Source: an uncultured Bacillales bacterium
GTDB taxonomy: Bacteria; Bacillota_I; Bacilli_A; RF39; UBA660
Reading direction: 5' to 3'
NCBI GenBank assembly: GCA_947571655.1
Contig: CANOYR010000003.1
Span: forward strand, 3,408-67,407
Length of the DNA stretch: 64,000 bases
A program made the translations under genes and the position numbers. The notes beneath the pieces are model-generated. The model was given only the letters and a program-made list of their open reading frames with translations, ran no database searches and was not told the origin of the DNA. Within the stretch, counting starts at the first letter, position 1. Every line of letters begins with the position of its first letter. Shown one piece after another: positions 7,447-64,000 of this stretch.

Positions 7447-7552
7447 CTAATATAGTGTATGAAAATGGGAAATGATTGTTTCCAAAAAGGACAAGTTAAA
7501 AAAATTTTTAAAAATAGTATGAAAATTGCAAAAGTGTGATATACTAAAAGTG

Positions 7553-46125: not shown

Positions 46126-46269
46126 AAGGTGAATAGGAAGCTATGGATGATAGTTTCCTTTTTAATTTAGAGAATAGGTTTTGTTAAAACTTATGAAATA
46201 AAAAAGTTTTCTTGAATTTTTGTTAAAAGTGTTGTAAACTAATCATAGATTCTTAGAAAGAAGAGTAAC

Positions 46270-46460
46270 GAAATTTCTTTTTTTAGAGAGGATATGGTTG
46301 GTGAAAATATCTATTAGAAATGAGTGAAGACACTTTCTATTAAAAGAAACGTAATTCTGCGTTAAAGAAGATAAGCATAAGTAATTATGGAAATAAGGTG
46401 GCACCACGAATTGATATTCGTCCTTTGTAGTGTTACCTTTTTCTTTTTAATCAAGAAAGG
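46270..46460 (+). promoter_or_regulatory. T-box leader of the hisS-aspS operon
   Basis: AGAGA at 46286, GGTGAAA and AGTGAAGACAC elements, and a GACAC specifier region at ~46329-46333. The T-box core AATAAGGTGGCACCACG is at 46391-46407. A terminator stem AAGGTGGCAC/GTGTTACCTT is followed by a U-run. Confidence 0.6.
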
Positions 46461-49650: not shown

Positions 49651-51228
49651 TGTCAATTTTTTTTAAAAATGTCAGTAAAATCGTTTTGAGAAAATGTCAG
49701 TTTGAAGTATAGTCATAGTAAGATCAAAAGATCAATTTTTGATGTGAGAAGATTATACTTCTTTTCTTTGTTAGTCAAGAATCAAGATAAACGACTGAAG
49801 TCGTCCTTGACTAACAACCATGATTTAGACAATAGTACATATTACTGTGAGAAGTAATAGGAGGTAACCCTTTTCTCCAAGGGGGATTTATAGATTTATG
49901 AGTTTTAGAAGAGTTAATATTGGAACTAGATTTCGTTATTTTGATATTTCTTTTTAACGAGGTATTAAAGTCTTTAACGGTATGTAAGTCATACCAAGTA
50001 TCATTAAATAAAATATGTTCAGTACCATCAAGAAATGTATATACTCTAACAGATTTGCTAGTTGGGAGATATACTTTCTCATTATTTTTTAATATTACAT
50101 GATAGACTTTATTGTATTTTAAGTAGGAATTATGAAATACCTTATGCTCACTCCAAACAGCTAATTGTTTGTTATAATCAAAATCATTGTCTAGACATAT
50201 GAAATGATTTTTGGTATTATCAATAGGAAGAGCGAATCTAGCGTTGTATTTGGGGATAAAGACATCGTTTAAGTATTGATTTGCCTCTTCAATTGTATGT
50301 ATGTGTTTCTTTTTGAGCTCTTTATATAAACGATCTTGAAAAGTTCTCCATAGTCTTTCAATCCTGCCTTTAGCACGTGGATTGATAGAAATAATATCTG
50401 TTCCAATATGTTCTAACATATTAGCGAAACGGGTATTTTTTATTTGTTTACCTTGAAGTTCGTCTTCTAAGGTTAACTCCTTTTTAGGAGATTTAAAAAC
50501 GGTTCTATAATCGGTATATAGATATTCAGGAATGCCATAGTTTTGAATTGTTTGTTTCATAATCATTTGATATCCGAAAATAGTTTCTTCTTTATCAAAG
50601 AAACAAGAGGTTACAGTACCAGTGGAATCATCGATTCCACCATGAAGATAGTAATATTTATCATCACCATAGAACCATTGGTGTTTCGATGCATCAACTT
50701 GAATTAATTCTCCAGCATATTCTTTTCTTTCTCTAGGAGGATAAGATTTTTTATGTTTTTTATATTTATGAGGAGATTCAATACCATTAGAAGTAAGAAG
50801 GTTATAAATAAAAGAATCAGAAACTATAATTTTGTGATAATCTTCTAAAATGTCATTAAAATGGTAGAAATTCCAACCTTCATATTCTTTATGATACAGA
50901 TCTATAATTTTATTTTTTAGTTCTTCTGAATATCCACGATGAGTGGATCTATTTCTATTTTTATGAGAAATACTTTTAATGCCATCTTTTAAGTAAGCCT
51001 TTTTCTTTCTATATATTTGTCTTTTAGATAGACCAGTTAATCTTGATACATCTGATATATTAATTTCGTTGGCAAGTAATTTTATTAAAATATTATTAAT
51101 TCTTTCTTCTTTCATATTTAATGTAATCCTTTCATTCATTTTGATTGCTCCCTTCCTAAGGAGCATATTATACCACTTACTGCCATTTTTAAAAAATGAT
51201 ATATACTGACATTATCACAAAATGATTA
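49651..51228 (-). mobile_element. Insertion sequence (~1.58 kb), DDE transposase, ISNCY/IS1202-like
   Basis: A single transposase ORF. The imperfect terminal inverted repeats start TGTCAATTTTTTTTAAAAATGTCAGTA (left) and TGTAATCATTTTGTGATAATGTCAGTA (reverse complement of the right end). An 18-bp direct repeat flanks it. It sits between the aspS terminator and the tRNA promoter. Confidence 0.5.
49811..51139 (-). CDS. DDE (rve integrase-core) transposase
   Basis: N-terminal HTH (ISDVSRLTGLSKRQIYR). DDE core: IQVDASKH...HGGIDDSTG...LYTDYRTVF...E. The start is MNERITL, after the RBS ggaagggag. Confidence 0.7.
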   Translation of the reverse strand: MNERITLNMKEERINNILIKLLANEINISDVSRLTGLSKRQIYRKKKAYLKDGIKSISHKNRNRSTHRGYSEELKNKIIDLYHKEYEGWNFYHFNDILEDYHKIIVSDSFIYNLLTSNGIESPHKYKKHKKSYPPRERKEYAGELIQVDASKHQWFYGDDKYYYLHGGIDDSTGTVTSCFFDKEETIFGYQMIMKQTIQNYGIPEYLYTDYRTVFKSPKKELTLEDELQGKQIKNTRFANMLEHIGTDIISINPRAKGRIERLWRTFQDRLYKELKKKHIHTIEEANQYLNDVFIPKYNARFALPIDNTKNHFICLDNDFDYNKQLAVWSEHKVFHNSYLKYNKVYHVILKNNEKVYLPTSKSVRVYTFLDGTEHILFNDTWYDLHTVKDFNTSLKRNIKITKSSSNINSSKTHKSINPPWRKGLPPITSHSNMYYCLNHGC

Positions 51229-51765: not shown

Positions 51766-51794
51766 TTGCAACAATTGTAAAAATATGTTACTAT
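51766..51794 (+). promoter_or_regulatory. Sigma-A-type promoter for the tRNA pair
   Basis: TTGCAA, a 17-nt spacer, then TACTAT, about 12 nt before the tRNA 5-prime end. Confidence 0.45.
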
Positions 51795-51806
51795 TAAAAA
51801 GTCGAT

Positions 51807-51883
51807 GGACCCTTAGCTCAGTTGGTTAGAGCATTCGGCTCATAACCGAACGGTCGATGGTTCGAGTCCATCAGGGTCCACCA
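51807..51883 (+). tRNA. tRNA-Met (anticodon CAT; could alternatively be tRNA-Ile2/k2C)
   Basis: 77-nt cloverleaf with 7-bp acceptor GGACCCT/AGGGTCC, D-arm GCTC-AGTTGGTTA-GAGC, anticodon loop CTCATAA, T-arm GGTTCGAGTCC, and encoded CCA. Confidence 0.85.
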
Positions 51884-51891
51884 CAAAATAT

Positions 51892-51976
51892 GCGGGTATG
51901 GCGGAATTGGCAGACGCACTAGACTTAGGATCTAGCGCCGCAAGGCTTGCAGGTTCAACTCCTGTTACCCGCACCA
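51892..51976 (+). tRNA. tRNA-Leu (anticodon TAG), class II with long variable arm
   Basis: GCGGGTATGGCGGAATTGGCAGACGC...anticodon loop CTTAGGA...variable arm...GGTTCAACTCCTGTTACCCGCACCA. Confidence 0.85.
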
Positions 51977-51988
51977 ATCGACATATAG

Positions 51989-52010
51989 CCCTTGATTTTC
52001 AAGGGTTTTT
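51989..52010 (+). terminator. Intrinsic terminator after the tRNA pair
   Basis: CCCTTG-atttt-CAAGGG followed by TTTTT. It overlaps the integrase stop codon. Confidence 0.5.
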
Positions 52011-53238
52011 ATATGCCCAAAATTATCTCTGGTCTTGTTTTGGTCTTGTTACTATTCTTTATTTCATCAATATAACTAATACTATCGAAATAATCTTTAG
52101 GAATCAAATGAATATATGTTTTCATTGTTTCATCAACGCTGGAGTGACGTAATCGCTTTGAAACTACCGTAATTGGCAGTTTTAATGATATTAACCAAGA
52201 GGCAAAAGAATGGCGAAAATCGTGTAATCTAAAGTTTCCTTGAGTAATATTTGTTTTCTTCAAATATTTATTTACAGCATTACAGAGTGAATTCTCAGAT
52301 ATTGGTTCATCTTTACCAAATATAAACCATGTTTCTTTAAAGTTAGGATCTTTCATACAAATTAACTTCCATTGGTGTATTTTCTCATTTAATTGTTTAT
52401 CTAGAGGCATTACATCTTTAGAAGATGGTGTTTTTGGATCTTTTAAATATCTTTTTTGTCCTTTCTTTTTTTTACTCATTGTATGATTTACAGTTAGAGT
52501 AGAATTTTCATAAGAATAATCTATCCATCTAAAGGCCATTAATTCTCCCGGTCTAGGCCCATTTGAGTAAAACAAATCAAAGATAGTATGATATTTATCA
52601 TCTTTTTTCGTTACTTCTAATAGTTTTAAATACTGTTCATAGGAAATTATATTGTATTTTTTTTCTTTTCTTTGATTAGCAATCATCTTTTTAGTGCCAA
52701 ACTTTCCGACTTTTCTAATTGGATTAGTCACAATTAACTCATTACTAACCGCAAATTCATACATCGCATTTACATAAGAATGTATTGCGTTTAAAAAAGA
52801 AAGTGAGTATTTTTTTTCTTTTTTTCCTCGAATGTATGTGGAATCTATTTTTTTGTCTTGCCATTGCTTATATTTGTCGCTAGTGTATGATATTATTTTT
52901 TTTACTCCTTCAGTTGGTAAAAAATGTTGTTCTAATCTGTTTTCAATAATCATTAAGCTATCATCATCTATTTTATGTTTTTTTGATTCTATGTACATCT
53001 TGAAAAGTTCATTATTGTTTATTTTTCTTACACCATTTGTAGATAATTGATTTTTATTATTGCTTAGTTCTTTAATAGCGTTTTCATATCCTTCTTTACC
53101 TAACCACATATTTCCATGATTGTCTAATCTTTTTGTAATCTGTTTTCCATTTACATAGGGTCTAATATAATATCTCGTTTGTCCATTTACTTTTTCTGGA
53201 TATTCATAAATAGGTATTGTTTTCTTTGATTTTGGCAT
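52009..53238 (-). CDS. int: Tyrosine site-specific integrase
   Basis: C-terminal catalytic domain with R...HDFRHSFAS...RLRHSSVDETMKTYIHL (R-H-R-Y). Confidence 0.85.
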   Translation of the reverse strand: MPKSKKTIPIYEYPEKVNGQTRYYIRPYVNGKQITKRLDNHGNMWLGKEGYENAIKELSNNKNQLSTNGVRKINNNELFKMYIESKKHKIDDDSLMIIENRLEQHFLPTEGVKKIISYTSDKYKQWQDKKIDSTYIRGKKEKKYSLSFLNAIHSYVNAMYEFAVSNELIVTNPIRKVGKFGTKKMIANQRKEKKYNIISYEQYLKLLEVTKKDDKYHTIFDLFYSNGPRPGELMAFRWIDYSYENSTLTVNHTMSKKKKGQKRYLKDPKTPSSKDVMPLDKQLNEKIHQWKLICMKDPNFKETWFIFGKDEPISENSLCNAVNKYLKKTNITQGNFRLHDFRHSFASWLISLKLPITVVSKRLRHSSVDETMKTYIHLIPKDYFDSISYIDEIKNSNKTKTRPEIILGI

Positions 53239-53614
53239 ACTTTACATATTCTCCTTTCCGTATGCCCTCCTTTCAAGCACTATATTATAATACTTTTTGT
53301 GTACTTTTCAATGACATTTTGTAAATTAATTAAAAAAATCGAAAAAATGTTCGTGTTTGGTTTTTTTCTAAAACGAATTATATTATAATAAAAAAGTAAG
53401 ATATCTTATGGCACAGGTTATCAATAAATTTTCATGAAAATATATGATAATATTGGATAAACATAGTATGTCGCAGTATTTGTACTAATGTTTATTAATT
53501 TTAATTATGGATTAAAAAGGGTAGAGGAGAGCGATGTAGTATGTATATTAAGTATTTGTATTTTATTTTAAAAGATTATAGATTGTATGATCGGTTTATA
53601 GAATATTTAGAAAA

Positions 53615-53642: not shown

Positions 53643-53969
53643 TTAATCTACGCATTCAATACTTTTTAAATCTATAGAATAATTTTCAATATTTGTAATA
53701 TTGCCTGAATACAAGCATTCAAAATTTTTTGTTTCTTTAGCTTCTAAGTTGTTTACTATACACAAATCCTCTTCTTTTAATGAACCACTTTTATATTCTA
53801 AATTAATCCATAAGGTATTACAACTCTTTGAACTATTATTTTTGATTGTTCCTGTGACCCAATTCAAATTTATTTTCTCAGACCAATTCATTTGAGATAT
53901 TTCATATTTTGTATTCCTACATCCACACAAACACAGACAGCATAGTCCGATTAATAATATTTTTTTCAT
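53643..53969 (-). CDS. Small lipoprotein (hypothetical)
   Basis: RBS gaaaggagt, then MKKILLIGLCCLCLCGC (signal peptide plus lipobox). The product is 108 aa. Confidence 0.4.
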   Translation of the reverse strand: MKKILLIGLCCLCLCGCRNTKYEISQMNWSEKINLNWVTGTIKNNSSKSCNTLWINLEYKSGSLKEEDLCIVNNLEAKETKNFECLYSGNITNIENYSIDLKSIECVD

Positions 53970-54059
53970 ATTACTCCTTTCTGTCTCTATACTAGCAGAC
54001 TTGTTTGATTTCATACTATCATATTTAAAGCAAAAAGAAAAGATACTATTTTTCAGTAT

Positions 54060-54485
54060 CTACTTTCTTTCTATGCAATTAAATTTTAATACTTCATCTT
54101 CTTCAAGTTTCTTCATTTTTTCAATATACGAAATTTTATCATTAGAATTGTATATAGAAGTAAAACTTGAATGAACAATTTTACCATTTCGGCTGGCTTT
54201 GCAATCTTGCACTTTTTCATCTGTCTCTTTACACCATTCTTTATGAGATTGTTCATTTTCAATTGCTTCCGAGAGTGTTTCATAACCAAAAAATGCAACT
54301 ATTTTTTCTTTTAAAATATATTTTCGACTTCTATCTAAATAATAGGTGTATTCAAGATAATTTTCGTCTTCCTTACTACCACTTGAGCAAATTGTATAGG
54401 GGTGAGGTTCGTTAGTGGTAAACGCAATGGTTCCAATTAGTAAAATACTAACAATGGTGATAATAATCAAAACTTTCTTTTTCAT
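54060..54485 (-). CDS. Membrane-anchored hypothetical protein (co-transcribed with repressor)
   Basis: MKKKVLIIITIVSILLIGTIAF N-terminal TM anchor. The start overlaps the repressor stop (ATGA). Confidence 0.35.
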   Translation of the reverse strand: MKKKVLIIITIVSILLIGTIAFTTNEPHPYTICSSGSKEDENYLEYTYYLDRSRKYILKEKIVAFFGYETLSEAIENEQSHKEWCKETDEKVQDCKASRNGKIVHSSFTSIYNSNDKISYIEKMKKLEEDEVLKFNCIERK

Positions 54486-54814
54486 TTTATTTTTTTCTCC
54501 TTTAACACATCGACAATCTGTAGGGCTTTATGTAATTCATCAATTGTTAAGTCATCACCAACCATTAATCCAGATTGTTTTAATAATCGTTTTATTTGCT
54601 CAATTTCTTCTAAACCATCAATTTCATTCCCCAATAAATAATCAATTGTTACTTGAAATTGATTTGCTATTTCTTTAATTATTTCTAATGATGGTTGACT
54701 AATACCAGATTCCCAATAGGAAACTGTATTTTTTGCAACACCCAATTTTTCTCCTAGTTCTTGTTGAGTTAAATTTGCTTGTTTTCTTAGCTCTTTTAAT
54801 TTGTTTCCAAACAA
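54482..54814 (-). CDS. XRE-family HTH repressor (cI-like)
   Basis: HTH KLKELRKQANLTQQELGEKLGVAKNTVSYWESG. The likely start is TTG after the RBS aaaggtggag. The ORF-track start, GTG at 54826, is also possible. Confidence 0.7.
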   Translation of the reverse strand: MFGNKLKELRKQANLTQQELGEKLGVAKNTVSYWESGISQPSLEIIKEIANQFQVTIDYLLGNEIDGLEEIEQIKRLLKQSGLMVGDDLTIDELHKALQIVDVLKEKKIK

Positions 54815-54831
54815 GTGAATCTCCACCTTTT

Positions 54832-54972: not shown

Positions 54973-55333
54973 TGTATTGTAGCAAGGATAAGTTACTTGT
55001 GAAGAATAAAAAAAGAAGTTAAGTTCTGTCGTCGAAAAATAGAAACTTAACTCCTAGGCAATTACTTTTTAACTACAACTTTAATTAATGAAATATCACT
55101 AATTTTAATTGTAATATCGTTATTAAGTAATCGTTTTAATAGAGTGATCATTAATTAAGACCTTTCTTTTTGTGCGTGAGCACCTAACTGTATTGGCCTC
55201 CTTCCAATGACACACCTCCTGCTACAAAAGACATTTAATGGCATTTGTAACACTTATAAAATAACACAAACGTCCATTATTGTCAATCAATGTATGGACT
55301 TTTTCTATACAAAAAAATATTGAAGCGAAGGGA

Positions 55334-55585
55334 GTGAAGACGATCGAATTAAAATCGCTAGATAGATTGTTTTATAAGGCTCTAGGAAGAGAATTATCTC
55401 TTATTAGACATCGTAAAGGAATCAATCTAAAAGAAATTGGAGAAGAACTGTCTTGTAGTGCACAAATGGTCGATAATTTTGAGCTTGGAAAGTGTAGAGT
55501 GTCCGAGGAAAAATTCGCCAGATATTGCAACTATTTAGGTATCGAACCAATTTTAGAAATTACAGTAAAATTTAAGAAAGAGTAG
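55334..55585 (+). CDS. Cro/XRE-like HTH protein
   Basis: HTH LSLIRHRKGINLKEIGEELSCSAQMVDNFELGK. The start is uncertain: TTG 55280 or GTG 55334. Confidence 0.45.
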   Translation: MKTIELKSLDRLFYKALGRELSLIRHRKGINLKEIGEELSCSAQMVDNFELGKCRVSEEKFARYCNYLGIEPILEITVKFKKE

Positions 55586-55593
55586 GGTTAATT

Positions 55594-56322
55594 ATGCAAC
55601 ATAGTTTTGATGTAGAAATAGCACAAAAGTATGGGATTTTGGAAGCAATTTTATTGGAAAATATTTATTATTGGATTAAAAAAAATGAAGCCAATAACAA
55701 GCATTTTTATGATGGAAAATATTGGACCTATAATTCAAGAAAAGCATTCGCCGAAATATTCCCATATGCTAGTGAAAAACAAATACGAACAGCCTTAGAA
55801 AAACTGATTAAAAATGGTTTAATTATCACGGGAAATTATAACCAAGATGGCAGAGATAGAACATTGTGGTATTCACTTACAGATGGGGGAATTTCACTGT
55901 TTCTAAAAAGGCAAATGCAACAGACTAACAAGTCAGACACACTTGCCCAAGAGGGCGAACCATTACCAGATAATAAACCAGATATATTACCCCCTTATAT
56001 TCCCCCTAAGGGAGAAACCAAGGAAAACAACAAAGAATTAATCGAGCAAATAATTGATTATCTTAACAGCAAAGGTGGTACATCATTCAAATCCACGAAT
56101 AAGCAAACAGTACAATTGATTAATGCTAGAATCAGACAAGGATACAACCTAGAAGATTTTAAAGACGTAATTTGGTATTGCTATTGTGAGTGGGTTCAAG
56201 AACCGTTTAAATTCAAAAACGGAAAAATGAGTGACACATATTTTAGACCATCAACACTGTTTAGAGAAACAAATTTTGAAAATTATTTACAAGAATATCG
56301 TAAAAGTATAAGTGGAACGTAA
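55594..56322 (+). CDS. Phage replisome organizer / DnaD-like replication protein with conserved phage C-terminal domain
   Basis: N-terminal winged-helix-like region (YGILEAILLENIYYWIKKNE...YWTYNSRKAFAEIFPYASEKQIRTALEKLIKNGLI). It lies immediately upstream of the DnaB helicase, and the ORFs overlap. Confidence 0.5.
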   Translation: MQHSFDVEIAQKYGILEAILLENIYYWIKKNEANNKHFYDGKYWTYNSRKAFAEIFPYASEKQIRTALEKLIKNGLIITGNYNQDGRDRTLWYSLTDGGISLFLKRQMQQTNKSDTLAQEGEPLPDNKPDILPPYIPPKGETKENNKELIEQIIDYLNSKGGTSFKSTNKQTVQLINARIRQGYNLEDFKDVIWYCYCEWVQEPFKFKNGKMSDTYFRPSTLFRETNFENYLQEYRKSISGT

Positions 56323-57652
56323 GAGTTTTGTTACAGATGAAAACGAAATAGAAGAATTCTTACTTGCTTGTATATTCCTTTACCCAGAAGTTACCAAAGA
56401 AATTAACTTTGAAGATAAATTTTTCGTTAATAAAAAGTTATTGAACATGTTTAAAAAAGTCTATCAAGAATATGGCTATTTGGATATTCCATTAATTGTT
56501 CAACTTGCGAAAGATAAACAAAAAGCATTAGATAGAATAATGGCATTAATGGAATATGTTGTAATAAAAGACAGCACAAGTTCCTATTACCAAAGATTAA
56601 AAGAAAAATATATCAAAGATGAAACTAACAAATTGGTTGCAAAACTTAATACGTTAGAAATCGATTATCAAGAATTTACTGATTGTGTTAAAGAACTGAA
56701 TGAAATTGAAATTTCTAACAACAATGGTTTATTAACAACCAAGGATATAGTTATAGATGAAAAAATCGAAAGAGAATATACAAACATAAGTGAGTTAGAT
56801 TATTTATTGAAAGGTATAGAGTATGGAAAATTATCGTTATGGAGTGGTATTACTAATCATGGAAAAACAACATTAATGATTCAATTTGCTAAAGAATGTT
56901 TGAAACAACATAAAAAGATATTCTACTTTAGTGGAGAACAATCAGCTAGTGAATTTAAAAATTATTTATATGTTGGTATGTGTAGGAAAGAGCAATTGGA
57001 TTTTATAAAAGATTCACATAATGACAAGATTTATGATACAAAACCCAAACAAGAAGTAATTGACTATTTCGATGATATATATTCAAGCGATTTATATATC
57101 TATGACAATAATATGTTAGATAATACAGTGACAAATATGCTTAAAACAATGAAAAATGCACTTCATAAAGGAGTACGAATATTCTTTATAGATAATTTTA
57201 TGCAACTTGATAATAGCGAAAGATTAGAGGAACAAACAAGGATAGTAGAGTTGTTCAAAAGATTTGCAAGAGATAATAATGTGATTGTTAATCTTGTAGC
57301 ACACCCTAGAAAGACTCAATTTATGAAATCACGATTAACTATTTTCGATATAGCAGGAACACAAAATATAGCTAATAAAAGTTCTAATATATGTACAATC
57401 ATGAGAACGGACATTTTGTCTGATACGGAAAAAAGCGAAATTGGATATATGCTGTTTAAAAGTGGTTTTAATATAGAACGATGTGATGGAATAGTTGAAG
57501 TTATAAAAACAAAAGGAAACAATTGCAAGATGGTTGGTTTAATTTATGATCAAGAATTTAAAACATATAAGCAATCTCCTAAATTATCTCAAGACGAATT
57601 AAAAAGTTTGGAAATAAAGTATTCAAAAAAAGGTGGAAGAAGGCTTGACTGA
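56312..57652 (+). CDS. dnaB: Replicative DNA helicase (DnaB family)
   Basis: DnaB N-terminal domain plus a RecA-like core: Walker A SGITNHGKTT, Walker B IFFIDNF, and H4 motifs. Confidence 0.75.
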   Translation: MERKSFVTDENEIEEFLLACIFLYPEVTKEINFEDKFFVNKKLLNMFKKVYQEYGYLDIPLIVQLAKDKQKALDRIMALMEYVVIKDSTSSYYQRLKEKYIKDETNKLVAKLNTLEIDYQEFTDCVKELNEIEISNNNGLLTTKDIVIDEKIEREYTNISELDYLLKGIEYGKLSLWSGITNHGKTTLMIQFAKECLKQHKKIFYFSGEQSASEFKNYLYVGMCRKEQLDFIKDSHNDKIYDTKPKQEVIDYFDDIYSSDLYIYDNNMLDNTVTNMLKTMKNALHKGVRIFFIDNFMQLDNSERLEEQTRIVELFKRFARDNNVIVNLVAHPRKTQFMKSRLTIFDIAGTQNIANKSSNICTIMRTDILSDTEKSEIGYMLFKSGFNIERCDGIVEVIKTKGNNCKMVGLIYDQEFKTYKQSPKLSQDELKSLEIKYSKKGGRRLD

Positions 57653-57824
57653 TTATTCAGAAACAAAAGATCTGCCAAGTTATATCTCAGGTTATGAGCA
57701 ATATTGTGATGAGATAGAACGGAGTAATAAACGCAATCATAGTAATGAATTTACTGAATATGATGACGAAAGATATGAAGAATATCGCATACAGGAGGAG
57801 TTGAATGGAAAACGAAATTTATAA
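57633..57824 (+). CDS. Hypothetical small acidic protein
   Basis: ORF only; it overlaps the dnaB stop. Confidence 0.25.
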   Translation: MEEGLTDYSETKDLPSYISGYEQYCDEIERSNKRNHSNEFTEYDDERYEEYRIQEELNGKRNL

Positions 57825-58125
57825 ATATTTATTGGAAAATGCACTTGGTTTTGAAAATCGAATCAAAGGTCAAGAATTAATGAAAATATTTAATATTTCA
57901 GACCACAAAACATTACGTTCTTATATAGAAGAAGCACGGAATAATGCTAAATATGAATATTTGATAGGAAGTGAAGCTGGAAAAGACGGTGGGTATTATA
58001 TTCCAATCAGTTTAGAAGAAAAAGATGTATCAACAAGTCATATTAGATTACGTGCAGAAAGTCAATTAAGAACATACGAAAATATGGAAGGAAAAAGATT
58101 TTATGAAATTAAAGAATCTATTTAG
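57805..58125 (+). CDS. Hypothetical phage protein
   Basis: ORF in the operon context with no confident motif. Confidence 0.3.
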   Translation: MENEIYKYLLENALGFENRIKGQELMKIFNISDHKTLRSYIEEARNNAKYEYLIGSEAGKDGGYYIPISLEEKDVSTSHIRLRAESQLRTYENMEGKRFYEIKESI

Positions 58126-58327
58126 TAATCTCTATTGGAAAAAGAAATATAACACTTTAGAAAATAAATATGAAACTGAAATTCAAGCCAAATTGAAAGC
58201 TAAAGAAAAAACAATAGAATTACAAGAAAAATATATCACATTGCTTGAAAAAGTAGAGGATATAGATAAATTATTTAAAAAAATGAATTTAAAATTTAAT
58301 GAGTTAGAGATGAAAGGAACAAAGTAA
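58103..58327 (+). CDS. Hypothetical coiled-coil protein
   Basis: K/E-rich heptad-like sequence with overlapping starts and stops. Confidence 0.3.
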   Translation: MKLKNLFSNLYWKKKYNTLENKYETEIQAKLKAKEKTIELQEKYITLLEKVEDIDKLFKKMNLKFNELEMKGTK

Positions 58328-58328
58328 A

Positions 58329-58643
58329 ATGGAAAATAAATTTAAAGTTGGAGATACAGTTAAAATTAACAAACAAGCAACTATAGAAGATTTTACAAAA
58401 AATCATTGGAATGGTTGTCAGAATGATACACTTGAATTTATTAAAGAATATGGGAATACAGATCGAACTTTTATAGTAAATAAAATTACTCCTATGAATA
58501 ATTTATCGGTAGTGGAATTTGAATGTGTAAATCATAATATTTTTGAATTGATTAAAAAGAAAGAAAATGTCAAAGAGATGACAGTGTCAGAAATTGAAAA
58601 AGAGTTAGGAATTACTGGTTTAAGGATTAAGAAAGAGGATTAA
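58329..58643 (+). CDS. Hypothetical phage protein
   Basis: ORF in the operon context. Confidence 0.3.
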   Translation: MENKFKVGDTVKINKQATIEDFTKNHWNGCQNDTLEFIKEYGNTDRTFIVNKITPMNNLSVVEFECVNHNIFELIKKKENVKEMTVSEIEKELGITGLRIKKED

Positions 58644-59344
58644 TGGAAAAGAAAATTAGAACATTAAAACCAGAAGAAATAGAAGTTAGAGTAAATCAAG
58701 TAACTTCTAAAGGTTGTCAATTATTGCTTTATAAAGACAGTCGTTGTGATAAAAGAATCCTTGATGAAACATTTGGAATCAACGGTTGGAAAAATAGATA
58801 TGAAGAAATCAAAGGAAATTTATTCTGTATTATATCTGTTTGGGATGATGAAAAAAAACAATGGATTGATAAAGAAGATTGTGGAGTCGAAAGTTTCTCA
58901 GAAAAACAAAAAGGGGAAGCAAGTGACGCTTTTAAAAGAGCATGTTTCAATATTGGAATTGGAAGAGAGCTATATACAAGACTTCATTATTTCGCAACAG
59001 TTCCAACACAAAATGTTAGTACAGATCCTAAGAAACCAAAGTATGAACTTATCAACAAGTATGAGAAATTTTCTGTATCAGAAATTTTTGTAAATGAAGA
59101 AACAGAAAAAATTGAAAAAATAAAAATTGTTGATAGTAAGAAAAAAGTAGTATTTAATTATGGCTACTCTGGACTAACGGAAATGATTACTCCAGAACAA
59201 ATAAAACAACTTCATACAATCCTTAGTAAAAAAGAAGGATTAAAAGAAAATGTTTATAAGCAATTGGGAATTACATCTTCTAAGGAGTTAACTTATGAAA
59301 AAGCAAAAGCAGTTATTGAAGACTTAAAAAAGAAGGTTAAGTAA
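58643..59344 (+). CDS. Rad52/Sak-like single-strand annealing protein
   Basis: The segments ...IEVRVNQ...ILDETFGINGWKNRYEE... and EASDAFKRACFNIGIGRELY align with lactococcal phage Sak. Confidence 0.55.
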   Translation: MEKKIRTLKPEEIEVRVNQVTSKGCQLLLYKDSRCDKRILDETFGINGWKNRYEEIKGNLFCIISVWDDEKKQWIDKEDCGVESFSEKQKGEASDAFKRACFNIGIGRELYTRLHYFATVPTQNVSTDPKKPKYELINKYEKFSVSEIFVNEETEKIEKIKIVDSKKKVVFNYGYSGLTEMITPEQIKQLHTILSKKEGLKENVYKQLGITSSKELTYEKAKAVIEDLKKKVK

Positions 59345-59345
59345 T

Positions 59346-60053
59346 ATGTTACCACAAATTAAAACATATGAGATTGATTATCAATTCATTATTGATAATT
59401 ATACAGACCCTAAGTTATGGGATAAAGTATGGAATTTATTTATATTTAGAAATTACGTTTATACATTGACTTTAAGTAGCATTGATGTTAAAAAATATGA
59501 GATTAGTTTTGAAATAAGGTTAGAAAGTGACTTAGATATATACAATCATAATAAATCAACAATTATTAAACATAATCTAAAAAATTCAACTATTGAAATA
59601 CTAAAAAAACAAATAAATGGAACAATGTTTACATTGTCTGAATGGCTAGAAAAAGAAGTTATTCAAAAAAGCTCAGAATACCAGGAAATAGAAAATTCTA
59701 AGTATAATGAAAGACAATACTTAGAAGATATCGCAAACGATTTTTTAGATGATAATGGTGTAACAAATGGTGATATTAGAGAGGTATATGTTGACTATTA
59801 TGTAGATAATAATGAGACCGTATATGAAAGATTAAGTGATTTAGAAGACAAAATGCGTTATAACTATTTAACAAACCTATTTTTAATATTAGTTGAATGT
59901 TCAAATGATGAGTTAAGAAAAGAACTTGTTATTAAAAATCAAAAAAATGAAGAAAAAATTCAGCAGATTATAAATGAAGTAGATGAATATATGCAATATG
60001 TTGAAACGGAAGAATGGTCCGATGAAATGAGAAATAAATTAGAGGCTATTTAA
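59346..60053 (+). CDS. Hypothetical protein
   Basis: 235-aa acidic protein with no motif, lying between the SSAP and the exonuclease. Confidence 0.3.
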   Translation: MLPQIKTYEIDYQFIIDNYTDPKLWDKVWNLFIFRNYVYTLTLSSIDVKKYEISFEIRLESDLDIYNHNKSTIIKHNLKNSTIEILKKQINGTMFTLSEWLEKEVIQKSSEYQEIENSKYNERQYLEDIANDFLDDNGVTNGDIREVYVDYYVDNNETVYERLSDLEDKMRYNYLTNLFLILVECSNDELRKELVIKNQKNEEKIQQIINEVDEYMQYVETEEWSDEMRNKLEAI

Positions 60054-60958
60054 TGTTAACTAACAAATGTAATTTACCAGAACCGATATATAACTTTTTA
60101 AAAAGTGATTATCAACCAAAAGAAAAACAATATAGTGTGACTACTATATTGAATCCAACAAGACAAATAATTTTAAAAAGAAGATATAACAATGCGATAG
60201 ACCAAGATTGCTCAGATTTGATCTGGACAATGCTTGGAACAGCATTTCATCTTGTTTTAGAAAATTCAAAAGCAGGAGATAATCAATTACAAGAAGAATA
60301 TTTAAAACAAGAGTTAAGCTGCTTAGATGATAGATTAAAAGGTTATTATTTAAGTGGAAAAGCTGACTTATTAGATATCAAGCAAAAAAAGATTATTGAT
60401 TATAAAACAACGAGTTCATTCAAATTTATAAAAAAAGACTTTGAAGACTATCGTTTACAATTATTAATTTATGCTTGGTTATTTAAAAAGATTGGTTATG
60501 AAGTAAATAAGGGAGAAATAGTTGCAATACTTCGTGATTGGCAAAGAAGTAAGGCAAAATTTGATAAATCATATCCACAATTACAAGTGCAAACTATTAC
60601 TTTTGAATTTACTGACAAAGATTTTGAAGATATAGAAATATATATCAAGAATCGATTTTTAGAAATAAAGGCATACGAGGACAAGCCGGATAATGAACTT
60701 CCAGAATGTACTATGGAAGAACGTTGGGCAAGTCCAACAATATATGCAATAAAGAAAATAGGAAATAAAAAAGCAATGAAATTACATGAGAATGAAAAAG
60801 AAGCTATAGATCATCTTAAAAATCTAAATTCAAAATTTGGAGACATATACGAAATAGAAGTTAGAGAGTCTTGTGATGGAAGATGTGAAAACTACTGTTC
60901 ATGTAATAAATATTGCAAATATTATCAAGAAAAATATTTAGATAAAGGAGAAAAATAA
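60053..60958 (+). CDS. PD-(D/E)XK nuclease with C-terminal Fe-S cysteine cluster (Cas4/AddB-nuclease-like phage exonuclease)
   Basis: Motifs D...DLLD...IIDYKT and QLLIYAWL. C-terminal cysteines CDGRCENYCSCNKYC. Confidence 0.55.
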   Translation: MLTNKCNLPEPIYNFLKSDYQPKEKQYSVTTILNPTRQIILKRRYNNAIDQDCSDLIWTMLGTAFHLVLENSKAGDNQLQEEYLKQELSCLDDRLKGYYLSGKADLLDIKQKKIIDYKTTSSFKFIKKDFEDYRLQLLIYAWLFKKIGYEVNKGEIVAILRDWQRSKAKFDKSYPQLQVQTITFEFTDKDFEDIEIYIKNRFLEIKAYEDKPDNELPECTMEERWASPTIYAIKKIGNKKAMKLHENEKEAIDHLKNLNSKFGDIYEIEVRESCDGRCENYCSCNKYCKYYQEKYLDKGEK

Positions 60959-60959
60959 A

Positions 60960-61382
60960 ATGGGAATTGATTTTAGTGAAAATATATTTAGTATTGATAC
61001 AAATGGACTTTTTCGTCGATTAGGAGTAGCTAGAAATTTATCAGAAAAAAAAGTAAATGGAAGATTAGATGAAATTGAATCCTATATTATAAATGATAAA
61101 GCAGTCATTATCTTTTGGAAAAATGGTAAAAAAACAGTAGCAACTGTAGATAAAAGAGATACATTTGACAAAGAATTCGGATTCTGTCTAGCAGTATTCA
61201 AATATATAATTTATGACATTTCAAGAAATAGTTATAAAAGAAAACTTGATTGTATTAAAGAAGATAAAATGAAAGATTATCTATTAGAATATTTTGATGA
61301 AGTAACTTTTAAAGATATAGAAAAGTCTAGGAAATTTCTTAGAAGTTTGAAAACAACAGGAAAGAGGGAAAAAATATGTTAG
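60960..61382 (+). CDS. Hypothetical protein
   Basis: ORF only. Confidence 0.3.
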   Translation: MGIDFSENIFSIDTNGLFRRLGVARNLSEKKVNGRLDEIESYIINDKAVIIFWKNGKKTVATVDKRDTFDKEFGFCLAVFKYIIYDISRNSYKRKLDCIKEDKMKDYLLEYFDEVTFKDIEKSRKFLRSLKTTGKREKIC

Positions 61383-61801
61383 AAGATATTGATAGAACAG
61401 ATTGGATTGAAGAAAGTAAAAATGCTTTCAATATTATTGGAAAAAATATTGGATTAAAAGATTTGATTAGAAAAGATAATTCCGAAGAAGAATATAAAAC
61501 TAACAAATTATTTATTAATTCTAAAGAAGATGAAACAATTGAACATCTTACTTGCAAGATCTATATATTAATTGAAAAATGGTTTTTATCAAGAGGAATA
61601 TTACCAGAATATATAGTTTTATCTAAGGAAGATTATAAGAAATTGTTAGATAGAACAATCGTTGTTGATGACAATTGTATTTTAGGAATAAAGATTGATT
61701 TATTAAGGGAGAAAAGAAATTATGAATCAAACAGAAATTCAAATTTTAGTTTTAGGAATCGTAAATATTCTACTGGCAATAGACATTCTTTTGCTAGATA
61801 G
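61376..61801 (+). CDS. Hypothetical protein (3-prime end uncertain; tail is low-complexity and overlaps an alternative small ORF)
   Basis: ORF in the track. The final ~30 codons read RNYESNRNSNFSFRNRKYSTGNRHSFAR, which is not protein-like. Confidence 0.25.
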   Translation: MLEDIDRTDWIEESKNAFNIIGKNIGLKDLIRKDNSEEEYKTNKLFINSKEDETIEHLTCKIYILIEKWFLSRGILPEYIVLSKEDYKKLLDRTIVVDDNCILGIKIDLLREKRNYESNRNSNFSFRNRKYSTGNRHSFAR

Positions 61802-61823
61802 AAAAGTTAGGAAAGGAAAATAG
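61722..61823 (+). CDS. Candidate 33-aa single-TM peptide (not in ORF track)
   Basis: RBS agggag at 61707-61712. ATG 61722 to TAG 61821-61823 reads MNQTEIQILVLGIVNILLAIDILLLDRKVRKGK. It ends 2 nt before the lipoprotein gene start. Confidence 0.3.
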   Translation: MNQTEIQILVLGIVNILLAIDILLLDRKVRKGK

Positions 61824-61825
61824 AT

Positions 61826-62419
61826 ATGAAGAAAGGTTTAAAATTATTAAGCATTATGGTATTAGTTTTATTTATTACTACAGGTTGTAGTTTAGAAGAA
61901 TCAGAAACTAATTCTAAGTTAAATAAAAATATAAAAAACTCAACTAGCGCCTCTTCTAATATTATTGAACATCAACCAGCACCTACTGATTTAGATTACT
62001 CATTAGAAAGATATAACTTAATTAAAAGAGCTTATTGGGTTAATGGAATGAGAGATAAAGCAAGAACACTTCCAAGCCCTATAGCTGATATGCCACTTGG
62101 ATATATTGTATTAATGAGTGATAGTGGTGCAATTGTAGGAAAATTTGTAGTAGATGGGAAAGTTAGTAGTTTAGGAAGTTATTTATTTCCGTCATATATA
62201 GATCAAGATAGTGATGGAGATACACCGGGTAGTGGTGCAGGTTATAGTAGTGGTGTTTACTCTGTAGAAATACCTGGTATTGATGGTGCTTATGGTAGCA
62301 ATGTAGAAGGTATATTCTTTTTTACAACGGATGGGAAATATATTGAATGGACTGGAGATTATTTATATAGTGATATCCCATTTGAAGTCAATAATCCAAT
62401 TGTTAAGATAGGAGAATAA
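61826..62419 (+). CDS. Lipoprotein (hypothetical) with Gly/Ser/Asp-rich region
   Basis: MKKGLKLLSIMVLVLFITTGCS (lipobox LFITTGC) in a 197-aa protein. Confidence 0.45.
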   Translation: MKKGLKLLSIMVLVLFITTGCSLEESETNSKLNKNIKNSTSASSNIIEHQPAPTDLDYSLERYNLIKRAYWVNGMRDKARTLPSPIADMPLGYIVLMSDSGAIVGKFVVDGKVSSLGSYLFPSYIDQDSDGDTPGSGAGYSSGVYSVEIPGIDGAYGSNVEGIFFFTTDGKYIEWTGDYLYSDIPFEVNNPIVKIGE

Positions 62420-62512
62420 AATGAGAAATAATTTTACTAATAAAACATTTATAGTAGCATTTTTTACAATACTTTGTATTGCTGTAATAATGCTTAGTAG
62501 GGGGCTTAGGTA

Positions 62513-62902
62513 ATGGGATATGTATTAGGTTGTTTTGGCGGATTAATAGTAGCACTATTATTGATATTTGGAGTTTATACAACCTTCTTCCCTAATGGAA
62601 GAGCAATGATTAATTCTTATGATAATATGATGAAAAAAGTTGACGACAGAACACAATATGAAACAAGAAAAAAAGTAGAAGATACAGCTCGAGCAAGTAT
62701 TAGTTCCTACAAGACTGATAAAGAAACTTATGAGATGTATAAAGACAGTGATAACTTAGAAAAACAATCATGGGCAGAACAAGCTAAAATGAGAGCTAAC
62801 AAAACAGCAAATATTTATAATGAGTATATGCTTAAAAATAGTTATGTCTTTGATGGAAATATTCCATCAGATATAGATTATCAATTAGAAATTTTAAAAT
62901 AG
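62513..62902 (+). CDS. N-terminally membrane-anchored hypothetical protein
   Basis: Hydrophobic N-terminus GYVLGCFGGLIVALLLIFGVY, then a charged soluble domain. Confidence 0.35.
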   Translation: MGYVLGCFGGLIVALLLIFGVYTTFFPNGRAMINSYDNMMKKVDDRTQYETRKKVEDTARASISSYKTDKETYEMYKDSDNLEKQSWAEQAKMRANKTANIYNEYMLKNSYVFDGNIPSDIDYQLEILK

Positions 62903-62911
62903 GAGGAATAC

Positions 62912-63169
62912 ATGGAATTAGAATTAAAAGTATTAGAAGAAATCGATACATACGAAGATGAAGTTAGATATCAAGAAATAAATGATAAAGAAAACAATAT
63001 TGCTTTCAGTGTTAGCAATATGGACTTTTGCCCAGAAGACGCAATTATCGGCAGAAGTTTATTTACGGCTATTGATTATATTAATACATTAAATAAAGGT
63101 ATCGAATTAGCAAAAAAAGGATATGAAAAAGTAATATTTAAAAAGGAGAAAATAAATGATGAAAATTAA
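62912..63169 (+). CDS. Hypothetical acidic protein
   Basis: ORF only. Confidence 0.3.
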   Translation: MELELKVLEEIDTYEDEVRYQEINDKENNIAFSVSNMDFCPEDAIIGRSLFTAIDYINTLNKGIELAKKGYEKVIFKKEKINDEN

Positions 63170-63491
63170 TATAAGAAAAGGTGAATATGGTTATTATACC
63201 AAAGTAAAAAACATACAAAATGATGAAGAAATTATTGCTTATATGAATGTTCAATTTCCTAAAGATAAAGAACCAGCAGAAACGGCATTACAAATTAATA
63301 TAAAAGATATGTTTCTTAGTTGTTATAACAGTCAAGAGGGAACAAAAGTAAAATTAGTTGTTACAGATTATGAAGTATTAAGAATATATGATGATTCTCA
63401 AAATACACAAGAAAGTGAAGTGTCTCAAACTAACGAACATGAAAACTTTCAAATAGATTTAGATTTAAGTGATGAATTACCGTTTGAATAG
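63156..63491 (+). CDS. Hypothetical acidic protein
   Basis: ORF only. Confidence 0.3.
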   Translation: MMKINIRKGEYGYYTKVKNIQNDEEIIAYMNVQFPKDKEPAETALQINIKDMFLSCYNSQEGTKVKLVVTDYEVLRIYDDSQNTQESEVSQTNEHENFQIDLDLSDELPFE

Positions 63492-63502
63492 GTAGTGATA
63501 AC

Positions 63503-63847
63503 TTGATAATTGTAAAATGTATAAAGAATGTAGAAAAAGAATTAGAAGTTATCAATAGTGAGTTAAATAGAGAATCAAAAAAGGAAGAAGTCAATCAACA
63601 GTACATTTGTGAATTATCTAAAACCAAAGATGAATTAGAAAAATATTTAGAACAATATAAAAAGAATTTATCGGAATTGGATGATATAGAAGCAAGAATA
63701 TATTACAAAATAGTATATCAAGGGTTAAATCCAATGAAGGCAATTGATAAAGTAGCAGAGGAAAATTATTTAAGAGATATTAGCCCATGTAATCCTGATT
63801 ATATAAGAAAAAGTATATATGCAAAGAAAATAAGAAATTTGATTTAG
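63503..63847 (+). CDS. Hypothetical protein, possible ArpU/sigma-region-4-like late regulator
   Basis: The C-terminal LDDIEARIYYKIVYQGLNPMKAIDKVAEENYL resembles a region-4 HTH. This is a weak call. Confidence 0.25.
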   Translation: MIIVKCIKNVEKELEVINSELNRESKKEEVNQQYICELSKTKDELEKYLEQYKKNLSELDDIEARIYYKIVYQGLNPMKAIDKVAEENYLRDISPCNPDYIRKSIYAKKIRNLI

Positions 63848-63967
63848 TATCCTTAAAATGTCCACTTTTTTCTTGATATAACATAATTGCAAGGAAGTAA
63901 GGAAACTTATTTTCTTGTCATAAAATCACCTCCTTTCTTTGGAGAGAGTAATCTCTCCTATATTGCG

Positions 63968-64000
63968 GGGTAGAGCAGTCTGGTAGCTCAGTGGACTCAT
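63968..64000 (+). tRNA. 5-prime part of a tRNA (truncated by window end); anticodon region reads CTCAT, possibly Met/Ile2-type
   Basis: GCGGGGTA-GAGC-AGTCTGGTA-GCTC-A-GTGGACTCAT has the acceptor and D-arm geometry of a tRNA. Confidence 0.5.

What the first reader, a model, noticed from the sequence alone, without database searches (positions are those of the whole stretch)
51766..53238. tRNA-Met/tRNA-Leu(TAG) operon with integrase abutting tRNA-Leu: classic phage integration site
The TTGCAA-17-TACTAT promoter drives two tRNAs, and a terminator hairpin follows. A tyrosine integrase with an R-H-R-Y domain ends within 35 bp of the tRNA-Leu 3-prime end on the opposite strand. The attL core should lie in the last ~20-40 nt of tRNA-Leu.
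Basis: partly seen in the sequence, partly recalled or inferred. Interest (0 to 1): 0.5.

Follow-up and report, generated by a model that had tools for sequence, protein, structure and literature searches.

The report
Prophage inserted in tRNA-Leu gene
A temperate phage of an uncultured gut bacterium has inserted into the last 17 bases of a leucine tRNA gene using its own integrase, which is a textbook arrangement and ordinary apart from the phage and host being undescribed.

Summary
Two tRNA genes (anticodons CAT and TAG) lie at 51807-51976, followed by a terminator hairpin at 51987-52007. A 409-aa tyrosine integrase (52009-53238, minus strand) stops 32 nt after tRNA-Leu.

From 53.6 kb to the window end the genes are a phage lysogeny and replication module. 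Metagenome contigs of the same element continue to a terminase and a portal, for at least 42 kb.

The key evidence comes from relatives. Integrases 59-68% identical sit on phage-genome contigs (about 45-46 kb where the contig is long) in the unintegrated (attP) arrangement. In every one, the gap between the lysis genes and int holds exactly TCCTGTTACCCGCACCA, the last 17 nt of this tRNA-Leu (51960-51976), then a similar terminator.

None of 48 related host species that carry the same tRNA pair has this integrase within the up to 8 kb of DNA retrieved around the pair.

- The core is about 17 nt, not 27.
- The terminator comes from the phage.
- "tRNA-Met" is probably tRNA-Ile2.

attR lies beyond the window and I could not reach it. 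This is an ordinary feature: a new member of a well-known kind.

The parts
51766..51794 (+). Host promoter of the tRNA operon: -35 TTGCAA (51766-51771), 17-nt spacer with TG at 51786-51787, -10 TACTAT (51789-51794)
   Evidence: Read from the sequence. It is below the consensus-scan threshold. The same pattern is present at the same position in 48 of 48 related species, against 0.64% of random windows.
51807..51883 (+). Host tRNA with anticodon CAT, called Met by ARAGORN and probably tRNA-Ile2 (lysidine type)
   Evidence: ARAGORN. Rfam 73.9 bits. Best E. coli matches are annotated tRNA-Ile, 83% identity.
51892..51976 (+). tRNA-Leu(TAG), intact. The 5' 68 nt are host DNA. The 3' 17 nt are the att core shared with the phage.
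   Evidence: ARAGORN. Rfam 56.8 bits. Identical over 85 nt to the tRNA-Leu of five related species.
51960..51976 (+). Inferred att core (the O region of attL): TCCTGTTACCCGCACCA. It covers the last T-loop base, the 3' strand of the T stem, the 3' strand of the acceptor stem, the discriminator base and CCA.
   Evidence: It is the only invariant block in an alignment of two attL junctions and four attP regions. It is exact in the attP of L085/L086, L087/L088 and L089 and extends to 18 nt in L118. It occurs once in the window, even allowing 3 mismatches.
51977..52008 (+). Start of the phage-derived P' arm. It carries an intrinsic terminator (stem 51987-52007 plus T-run) that now ends the host tRNA operon.
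   Evidence: Terminator scan and fold at -11.3 kcal/mol. A homologous hairpin occupies the same position in the attP of unintegrated relatives. Related hosts have other sequences after CCA.
52009..53238 (-). Phage tyrosine integrase, 409 aa, with three predicted domains (N-terminal beta-sheet plus helix, core-binding, catalytic)
   Evidence: PF00589 at 3.9e-20 and phrog_1 at 9.8e-54. Catalytic R229, K269, H339, R342, H365 and Y375. AlphaFold2 model with pLDDT 88.7; the best solved-structure matches are Tn1549 Int and full-length lambda Int.
52029..52050 (+). Candidate P' arm-type integrase binding sites: a tandem pair CTGGTCTTGTT / TTGGTCTTGTT, 11 nt apart, inside the last codons of int
   Evidence: The GGTCTTGT motif starts 71 and 82 nt after the first base of the core in the window and in L095, and at equivalent positions in the attP regions. 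A second tandem pair starts 136 and 124 nt before the core in the non-coding P arm of L085, L087 and L089, and a similar pair is in L118. The motif occurs only 5 times in 64 kb on both strands. Binding is inferred, not shown.
53284..53311 (-). Candidate integrase promoter: TTGAAA, 16 nt, TATAAT, 46 nt upstream of the int ATG
   Evidence: 11 of 12 consensus matches, the best site in the scanned region. It is a consensus match only.
53643..54485 (-). Two small cargo genes between int and the repressor: a 123-aa predicted lipoprotein (53643-54014) and a 141-aa protein with an N-terminal membrane or signal segment (54060-54485)
   Evidence: ORFs with no family match. The 123-aa gene is replaced by a 108-aa gene in other copies of the prophage.
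54482..54826 (-). cI-like repressor (HTH_3, Phage_CI_repr)
   Evidence: Pfam HTH_3 at 2.7e-19 and Phage_CI_repr at 1.2e-6. phrog_8 and phrog_4.
55280..55585 (+). Cro-like HTH regulator, transcribed divergently from the repressor
   Evidence: Pfam HTH_31 at 1.6e-7.
55594..64000 (+). Phage early region, running off the window end. It holds a DnaD-like initiator (55594-56322), a DnaB-like helicase (56312-57652), an Erf/Rad52-like annealing protein (58643-59344), a PD-(D/E)XK exonuclease (60053-60958) and small ORFs of unknown function.
   Evidence: Pfam and PHROG matches. Metagenome contigs of the same element continue with RusA, a DNA methylase, RtcB, an RNA ligase, a terminase and a portal.

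Best explanation
Position 51960-51976 is the integrase-proximal junction (attL, of the B-O-P' type) of a prophage at least 42 kb long. The host is an uncultured, low-GC gut Bacilli lineage related to Candidatus Onthousia.

The phage integrase is a lambda-type tyrosine recombinase. It recombined a phage attP of about 230 bp with the 3' end of the host tRNA-Leu(TAG) gene. The exchange took place inside a 17-nt sequence, TCCTGTTACCCGCACCA, that phage and host share.

Because the phage carries its own copy of those 17 nt, the tRNA gene is rebuilt intact. The phage also brings an intrinsic terminator just after the core. That terminator now ends the host tRNA operon and shields the convergently oriented int gene from read-through.

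Tandem GGTCTTGT repeats on both sides of the core are the likely arm-type sites that the integrase's N-terminal domain binds while its other domains bind the core.

Shown here:
- the tRNAs, the integrase and its catalytic residues;
- the prophage gene content;
- the 17-nt block in the attP of relatives;
- the absence of the integrase, in the DNA retrieved around the tRNA pair, in 48 related species.

Inferred:
- that this phage's own attP has the same core;
- that the repeats are binding sites;
- that the displaced 17-nt copy (attR) lies 45-55 kb downstream;
- that the prophage can still excise.
For: - tRNAs.
- Integrase family and catalytic residues.
- Three-domain model resembling Tn1549 Int and full-length lambda Int.
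- Lysogeny and replication module in the window.
- The same element continues at least 42 kb, with a terminase and an SPP1-type portal about 27.6 kb from attL.
- An identical int/tRNA/host-left junction appears in three independent metagenome assemblies (L003, L004, L033).
- Integrase relatives at 67-68% identity sit on contigs of about 28-46 kb with the order lysis genes, about 230 nt, then int. Several of these come from separate samples, and two are circularly permuted relative to each other.
- That intergenic region contains the exact 17-nt 3' end of tRNA-Leu, then a homologous terminator.
- A relative at 59% identity has an 18-nt block.
- In the alignment the 17 nt are the only invariant block. 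The left flank is tRNA in the attL junctions and unrelated phage DNA in the attP regions. The right flank is homologous in all six.
- A relative at 76% identity abuts the same tRNA-Leu in another host.
- 48 related species carry the tRNA pair with the invariant 3' 29 nt and no integrase homolog in the retrieved loci.
- The arm-type repeat positions are conserved.
- The general rule that islands integrate into tRNA genes and restore them is stated in PMC4383910. The organisation of a 17-bp core plus paired direct-repeat arm sites is described for phage mv4 in bioRxiv 10.1101/2023.11.06.565760.
Against: - attR was not seen. The core occurs once in the window, and the fetched DNA stops about 32 kb into the prophage.
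- No attP-type or empty-site contig was found for this exact phage and host species. All three informative contigs are occupied, and two JGI metagenome scans found nothing.
- No excisionase gene was recognised among the small ORFs listed between int and 58.4 kb.
- The N-terminal arm-binding domain matches no Pfam model.
- On the P' side the repeats lie in coding sequence, so part of their conservation could reflect the protein.
- The 17-nt boundary is taken from relatives that are 59-76% identical, not from this phage.
Confidence: 0.85

Rival explanations
1. The element is a defective or fixed (domesticated) prophage. It entered through the tRNA-Leu site as described, but it can no longer excise, and the integrase is a relic or has been co-opted.
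For: - Every informative contig of this host species shows the occupied site (3 of 3), and none shows an empty site.
- No attP junction for this exact phage turned up in any collection.
- No excisionase was recognised.
- Decay does happen in this family. In L095 a 76%-identical integrase remains with only two small genes next to host-like DNA.
Against: - ORFs are uninterrupted over about 32 kb, including the repressor, the replication genes, the terminase and the portal.
- All catalytic residues are intact.
- Copies from different samples differ in cargo genes, which suggests ongoing phage exchange.
- Close relatives exist as unintegrated genomes.
- The integrase is absent, in the DNA retrieved at this site, from 48 related species.
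Confidence: 0.12
2. The recombination site is not inside the tRNA. It lies in the terminator or spacer downstream, and the tRNA is only a neighbour.
For: The terminator hairpin after tRNA-Leu resembles hairpins found downstream of tRNA-Leu in some integrase-free relatives, for example L064. It could therefore be host DNA.
Against: - In four attP regions the only exact identity with the host is the 17-18 nt of the tRNA 3' end. The terminator is similar but not identical.
- The integrase stop codon overlaps the terminator's T-run, which leaves no room for a core further right.
Confidence: 0.02
3. The element is a non-phage integrative island, such as a satellite or an integrative conjugative element, that happens to carry phage-like early genes.
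For: The nearest integrases in deposited phage records include many Streptococcus satellite phages, at about 26% identity.
Against: - The element is at least 42 kb and has its own terminase large subunit and portal.
- Relatives carry capsid, tail, holin and endolysin genes on genomes of about 45 kb.
- No conjugation genes were seen.
Confidence: 0.01

Closest known systems
Lactobacillus phage mv4 integrase/attP/attB system
   Same: Both integrate at the 3' end of a tRNA gene through a 17-bp core identical to the tRNA. Both have an attP of about 215-234 bp with two pairs of roughly 11-bp direct-repeat arm sites, one pair on each side of the core (bioRxiv 10.1101/2023.11.06.565760). Here there is a 17-nt core, with tandem repeats starting 136 and 124 nt before it and 71 and 82 nt after its first base, a span of about 226 bp.
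   Different: The target is tRNA-Leu(TAG), not tRNA-Ser. The host is an uncultured gut Bacilli lineage. Sequence relatedness to mv4 Int was not tested. Binding sites and the overlap region are inferred here, whereas they are shown experimentally for mv4.
Phage lambda Int (heterobivalent tyrosine integrase)
   Same: Both have a three-domain layout, and the predicted structure aligns with full-length lambda Int (1z1b, E=3.2e-11). The catalytic R-K-H-R-H-Y set is present. In the prophage, int lies next to the B-O-P' junction.
   Different: Sequence identity is about 15%. The target is a tRNA gene rather than an intergenic site. No Xis gene and no host-factor sites were identified.
Tn1549 / Tn916-type transposon integrases
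   Same: These are the best solved-structure matches by sequence (6en0, E about 1e-3) and by fold (6en2, E=1.1e-13, target-normalised TM-score 0.74-0.78).
   Different: Those enzymes insert conjugative transposons with relaxed target choice. This one belongs to a phage and its relatives use one specific 17-nt site.
tRNA-gene genomic islands as catalogued by Islander
   Same: A tyrosine integrase lies next to a tRNA gene, and the tRNA is regenerated by sequence carried in the element (PMC4383910). A displaced 3' fragment is expected at the far end.
   Different: The displaced fragment was not observed here because it lies outside the window.
Haemophilus phage HP1, which integrates into a tRNA-Leu gene (recalled from memory, not checked here)
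   Same: A temperate phage that targets a tRNA-Leu gene with a tyrosine integrase. The HP1 Int catalytic domain is a weak fold match (1aih).
   Different: As I recall, HP1 crosses over in the anticodon stem-loop and shares a much longer identity with the host. Here the identity is only the 3'-terminal 17 nt.

Membership tests
Tyrosine recombinase / phage integrase (PF00589) | Significant match to the catalytic-domain model | tested here: met
   PF00589 at E=3.9e-20 and 72.8 bits, against a cutoff of 27.1. phrog_1 integrase at 9.8e-54.
Tyrosine recombinase / phage integrase (PF00589) | Catalytic residues R, K, H-x-x-R, H/W and the nucleophile Y | tested here: met
   R229, K269, H339, R342, H365 and Y375 are present. 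R229, K269, R342, H365 and Y375 are invariant in 38 relatives, and H339 is conserved in at least 90% of them.
Heterobivalent (lambda-type) integrase | Separate N-terminal arm-binding domain ahead of the core-binding and catalytic domains | tested here: inconclusive
   The AlphaFold2 model has an N-terminal module (residues 7-65, beta strands plus a helix) joined by a low-confidence linker, and it aligns with full-length lambda Int over 391 columns. No Pfam arm-binding model matches.
Heterobivalent (lambda-type) integrase | Arm-type repeats on both sides of the core in attP | tested here: met
   This was met in relatives' attP, with tandem GGTCTTGT starting 136 and 124 nt before the core and about 71 and 82 nt after its first base. 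In the window only the P' pair (52031-52049) is visible. Protein binding was not tested.
Prophage integrated in a tRNA gene (Islander-type island) | Integrase gene adjacent to the 3' end of an intact, regenerated tRNA gene | tested here: met
   The gap is 32 nt. The tRNA-Leu is full length and identical to that of five related species.
Prophage integrated in a tRNA gene (Islander-type island) | The element carries a copy of the tRNA 3' segment (attP core) | tested here: met
   There is an exact 17-18 nt block in four attP regions of integrase relatives at 59-68% identity. This was not shown for this exact phage.
Prophage integrated in a tRNA gene (Islander-type island) | Displaced tRNA 3' fragment as a direct repeat at the far end (attR) | not testable with these tools
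   There is no second copy in the window. The prophage runs at least 42 kb past attL, and the DNA I could fetch ends about 32 kb in.
Prophage integrated in a tRNA gene (Islander-type island) | Unoccupied site in relatives | tested here: met
   48 species representatives have the same tRNA pair and no integrase homolog in the retrieved loci, which are up to 8 kb and in several cases end within about 200 nt downstream of tRNA-Leu. No empty site was found within the same species.
Complete temperate phage | Lysogeny switch, replication, packaging, morphogenesis and lysis modules | tested here: inconclusive
   The switch, the replication genes, the terminase and the portal were seen. The capsid, tail and lysis genes of this exact phage are beyond the DNA reached. 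Relatives have them.

The most novel reading that the evidence does not exclude
This could be the first outline of a lineage of 45-50 kb temperate phages of uncultured, small-genome gut Bacilli (relatives of Candidatus Onthousia). Its compact system resembles that of phage mv4: a 17-nt target at a tRNA 3' end that is invariant in at least 48 host species, arm sites partly embedded in the int coding sequence, and a phage-supplied terminator that takes over termination of the host tRNA operon. If the integrase needs only this short, widely conserved attB, it could serve as a ready-made integration tool for a group of bacteria that has no genetic tools.
Probability: 0.4. Interest if true: 0.3.

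Novelty: new member of a known kind. Interest (0 to 1): 0.15.

Why it matters
The biology is textbook. It marks a prophage boundary, which helps annotate the genome, and it corrects two annotation details: the tRNA identity and the origin of the terminator.

There are two modest added values. It gives a defined attP/attB pair, with a 17-nt attB conserved across many uncultured gut Bacilli, that could be tried as an integration tool. It also shows that this tRNA-Leu locus is a repeated landing site for mobile elements in that lineage.

Tried and rejected
- **Repeat of the tRNA 3' end in the window.** Neither the 27-mer nor the 17-mer, with up to 3 mismatches, has a second copy.
- **Deposited phage genomes.** There is no nucleotide match to the prophage. 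The nearest integrases are only about 26% identical.
- **IMG/VR.** No close integrase relative was found. The two hits to the tRNA 27-mer are unrelated tRNA-Leu(CAG) genes. The attP-type 18-mer found one low-GC phage (L106) with the same layout of core, terminator and integrase but a 26%-identical integrase. It also found two phages with other layouts and three complete tRNA genes.
- **JGI metagenomes.** No integrase relative and no contig with this species' tRNA spacer were found. No same-species empty site was therefore obtained.
- **Host-left gene look-up.** Contigs either carry the integrase or break inside the tRNA genes.
- **Jumping to the right end through a tail protein conserved among relatives.** The look-up landed on a different phage (L090-L094). 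There was no overlap with L009, no contig of matching length and no core sequence, so I discarded it.
- **Walking along Logan contig SRR36181226_3352.** This reached about 32 kb of 42 kb, where the terminase and portal lie, but not attR.
- **Start of that contig, near window position 51947.** I considered it as a marker of the core boundary and rejected it. The tRNA-Leu 3' 29 nt are shared by many co-occurring species, which explains the assembly break without any att repeat.
- **P0007 (49% identity, L100).** It shows no tRNA-Leu core, so site specificity changes somewhere between 49% and 59% identity.
Full report
**1. The observation**

ARAGORN finds exactly two tRNA genes in the 64-kb window: tRNA(CAT) at 51807-51883 and tRNA-Leu(TAG) at 51892-51976, both on the + strand. 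Rfam confirms both, at 73.9 and 56.8 bits.

On consensus alone it is not significant. It scores 8 of 12, below the scanner's threshold, and promoter-like sites in this AT-rich stretch are at chance level, 12 found against 13.0 expected. Conservation rescues it. The pattern TTG[CT]N, 15-18 nt, TGnTAnnAT sits at the same place upstream of the tRNA pair in 48 of 48 related species, against 0.64% of random 72-nt windows.

A terminator (9-pair stem at 51987-52007, then a T-run) follows tRNA-Leu.

The ORF at 52009-53238 on the minus strand encodes a 409-aa tyrosine integrase (PF00589 at 3.9e-20; phrog_1 at 9.8e-54). Its catalytic residues are R229, K269, H339, R342, H365 and Y375. Its stop codon lies 32 nt from the tRNA-Leu 3' end.

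**2. What surrounds it**

To the left is host DNA:
- a T-box leader followed by hisS and aspS;
- an ISNCY transposase at 49811-51166;
- a 155-aa gene;
- the two tRNAs.

To the right of the integrase is a typical temperate-phage layout:
- two small secreted or membrane ORFs on the minus strand;
- a cI-like repressor at 54482-54826 (minus strand);
- a divergently transcribed Cro-like gene;
- a DnaD-like initiator, a DnaB helicase, an Erf/Rad52-like annealing protein and a PD-(D/E)XK exonuclease.

Metagenome contigs that carry identical window proteins extend the element. Logan contig SRR36181226_3352 (42,257 nt) starts near window position 51947. It continues through RusA, a DNA methylase, RtcB plus an RNA ligase and eight tRNA genes. 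A terminase large subunit and an SPP1-type portal lie about 27.6 kb from the tRNA. The element is therefore a prophage of at least 42 kb, and its far end lies well outside the window.

The same int/tRNA/host-left junction, base for base, occurs in three independent assemblies.

**3. The host and the unoccupied site**

A scan of 185,579 species genomes for the tRNA(CAT)-tRNA-Leu tandem returned 48 species. All are uncultured gut 'Bacilli' or 'Tenericutes' genomes assembled from metagenomes, and they include Candidatus Onthousia.

In every locus that includes the tRNA-Leu 3' end (47 of the 48), its last 29 nt are the same. Immediately after CCA the sequences diverge into several unrelated classes. 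None of the 48 loci encodes a homolog of the integrase. These loci are at most 8 kb, and several end within about 200 nt downstream of tRNA-Leu, so the negative result covers only that DNA.

The closest species keep the order hisS, aspS, 155-aa gene, tRNAs, at 80-85% identity. As far as this DNA shows, the integrase is a lineage-specific insertion, not a conserved resident of the site.

I found no empty site within the same species.

**4. The att core, from relatives**

A protein search found only 41 relatives of the integrase in 5.8 billion proteins.

Those at 67-68% identity (P0003, P0004, P0005) lie on contigs of about 28-46 kb. There the integrase is followed, on the other strand, by endolysin, holin and tail genes. 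That is the order expected for an unintegrated phage genome. Two of the lineages recur in separate samples, and two contigs of one lineage are circularly permuted relative to each other.

In each, the roughly 230-nt gap between the lysis genes and int contains TCCTGTTACCCGCACCA. This matches exactly the last 17 nt of the window's tRNA-Leu (51960-51976). It is followed by a terminator hairpin homologous to the window's and then the int stop codon. A 59%-identical relative (P0006, L118) has the same layout with 18 identical nucleotides. A 76%-identical relative (P0002, L095-L099) abuts the same tRNA-Leu in another host.

Aligning two attL junctions with four attP regions shows three things:
- The 17 nt are the only invariant block.
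- To the left, the attL sequences are tRNA and the attP sequences are unrelated AT-rich phage DNA.
- To the right, all six are homologous.

This is the classical attL-versus-attP picture. It places the left edge of the shared segment at 51959/51960. It also shows that everything right of 51976, including the terminator, is phage DNA.

A 49%-identical relative (P0007, L100) has no such core, so site specificity changes somewhere between 49% and 59% identity.

**5. How it most likely works**

The AlphaFold2 model of the integrase (pLDDT 88.7) has three parts: a small N-terminal beta-sheet-plus-helix module, a core-binding domain and a catalytic domain. It matches Tn1549 Int and full-length lambda Int best.

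Tandem GGTCTTGT motifs spaced 11-12 nt apart occur on both sides of the core. One pair starts 71 and 82 nt after the first base of the core (window 52031-52049, inside the last codons of int). In the relatives' attP a second pair starts 136 and 124 nt before the core, in the non-coding P arm. The motif is otherwise rare.

The combination of a 17-bp tRNA-3'-end core and two pairs of direct-repeat arm sites within about 226 bp matches what has been worked out experimentally for Lactobacillus phage mv4 (bioRxiv 10.1101/2023.11.06.565760).

I therefore infer a heterobivalent tyrosine-integrase reaction with strand exchange inside the 17 nt. The tRNA is rebuilt from the phage copy, as is the rule for tRNA-targeting islands (PMC4383910). 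The displaced host copy of the 17 nt, together with the native terminator, should form attR at the far end.

The binding sites, the position of the overlap region and the ability to excise are inferences. No excisionase was recognised.

**6. Rival explanations**

- A defective or fixed prophage remains possible (about 0.12). Every informative contig of this species is occupied, and L095 shows that this family can decay to an integrase-plus-cargo remnant. Against this, ORFs are intact over about 32 kb, the catalytic residues are intact, and relatives exist as free genomes.
- A crossover site in the terminator rather than the tRNA is contradicted by the attP alignment.
- A satellite or conjugative element is contradicted by the terminase and portal genes and by the size of the element.

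**7. Verdict**

The refinements are a 17-nt core, a phage-borne terminator and a probable tRNA-Ile2 rather than tRNA-Met. attR remains unverified.

This is a new, undescribed phage and integrase. The nearest deposited phage integrases are about 26% identical, and there is no nucleotide match to known phages. It uses a thoroughly known mechanism, so interest is low.

Noticed in passing
window 51807-51883: ARAGORN calls the CAT-anticodon tRNA 'Met', but its best matches in E. coli genomes are genes annotated tRNA-Ile (83% identity over the full 77 nt). It also has the C4-G69 and C5-G68 acceptor pairs that I recall as TilS determinants. It is probably the lysidine-modified tRNA-Ile2.
   Followed up: partly
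window 49811-51166 (-): An ISNCY-family transposase (NF033594, 331 bits) lies between aspS and the 155-aa gene, about 640 nt upstream of the tRNA pair. It is absent from the closest species representative (L059) and present in several metagenome contigs of this species. It is a second mobile element at the same locus.
   Followed up: partly
window 53643-54014 (-) and 54060-54485 (-): Two small ORFs lie between int and the repressor: a predicted lipoprotein and a membrane or secreted protein, with no family match. In other copies of the prophage (L009, L020, L022) the 123-aa ORF is replaced by a 108-aa ORF, and the repressor is 110 rather than 114 aa. In other Firmicutes phages this slot often holds superinfection-exclusion genes (from memory).
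   Followed up: partly
L108 437-2038 and 19489-19806 (same prophage, just past the window end): The prophage carries eight tRNA genes of its own: Met(cat), Glu(ttc), Pro(tgg) and Ile(tat), then Trp, Gly, Asp and Leu(taa). The first starts almost exactly at the window end.
   Followed up: no
L108 11871-13981: The prophage encodes RtcB (428 aa) and an RNA ligase (206 aa) side by side. This looks like an RNA repair pair, as used by some phages against anticodon nucleases (my inference).
   Followed up: no
L009 14533-16427: Inside the early region, which otherwise runs on the + strand, a block of four genes lies on the opposite strand: a small serine resolvase, two unknown genes and an SSB. It may be an inserted or invertible module.
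   Followed up: no
L059 (CAJTXV010000049.1), 573-2399 nt downstream of tRNA-Leu: The closest species representative has a 609-aa large serine recombinase (Resolvase, Recombinase and Zn-ribbon domains) just downstream of the same tRNA-Leu. The region after this tRNA appears to be a repeated landing zone for different mobile elements.
   Followed up: partly
L095 (Logan SRR10090061_10336) compared with L064 (CATLHA010000003.1): A 76%-identical integrase abuts tRNA-Leu with only two small genes behind it. The sequence then becomes 98.7% identical to L064, which has a different 783-nt segment instead and no integrase. L064's post-tRNA hairpin still resembles the phage-type terminator. This looks like a remnant or a replacement rather than a clean insertion.
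   Followed up: partly
window 7548-7732, 28112-28286, 46249-46428: A 6S RNA and two T-box leaders pass Rfam gathering scores. The second T-box precedes the hisS-aspS genes.
   Followed up: no
L106 (IMGVR_UViG_3300021400_001598), around position 2065 in tRNA orientation: An unrelated low-GC viral contig has the same 18-nt tRNA-Leu 3' end followed by a terminator and a 26%-identical integrase. At least two integrase lineages therefore target this tRNA 3' end.
   Followed up: partly
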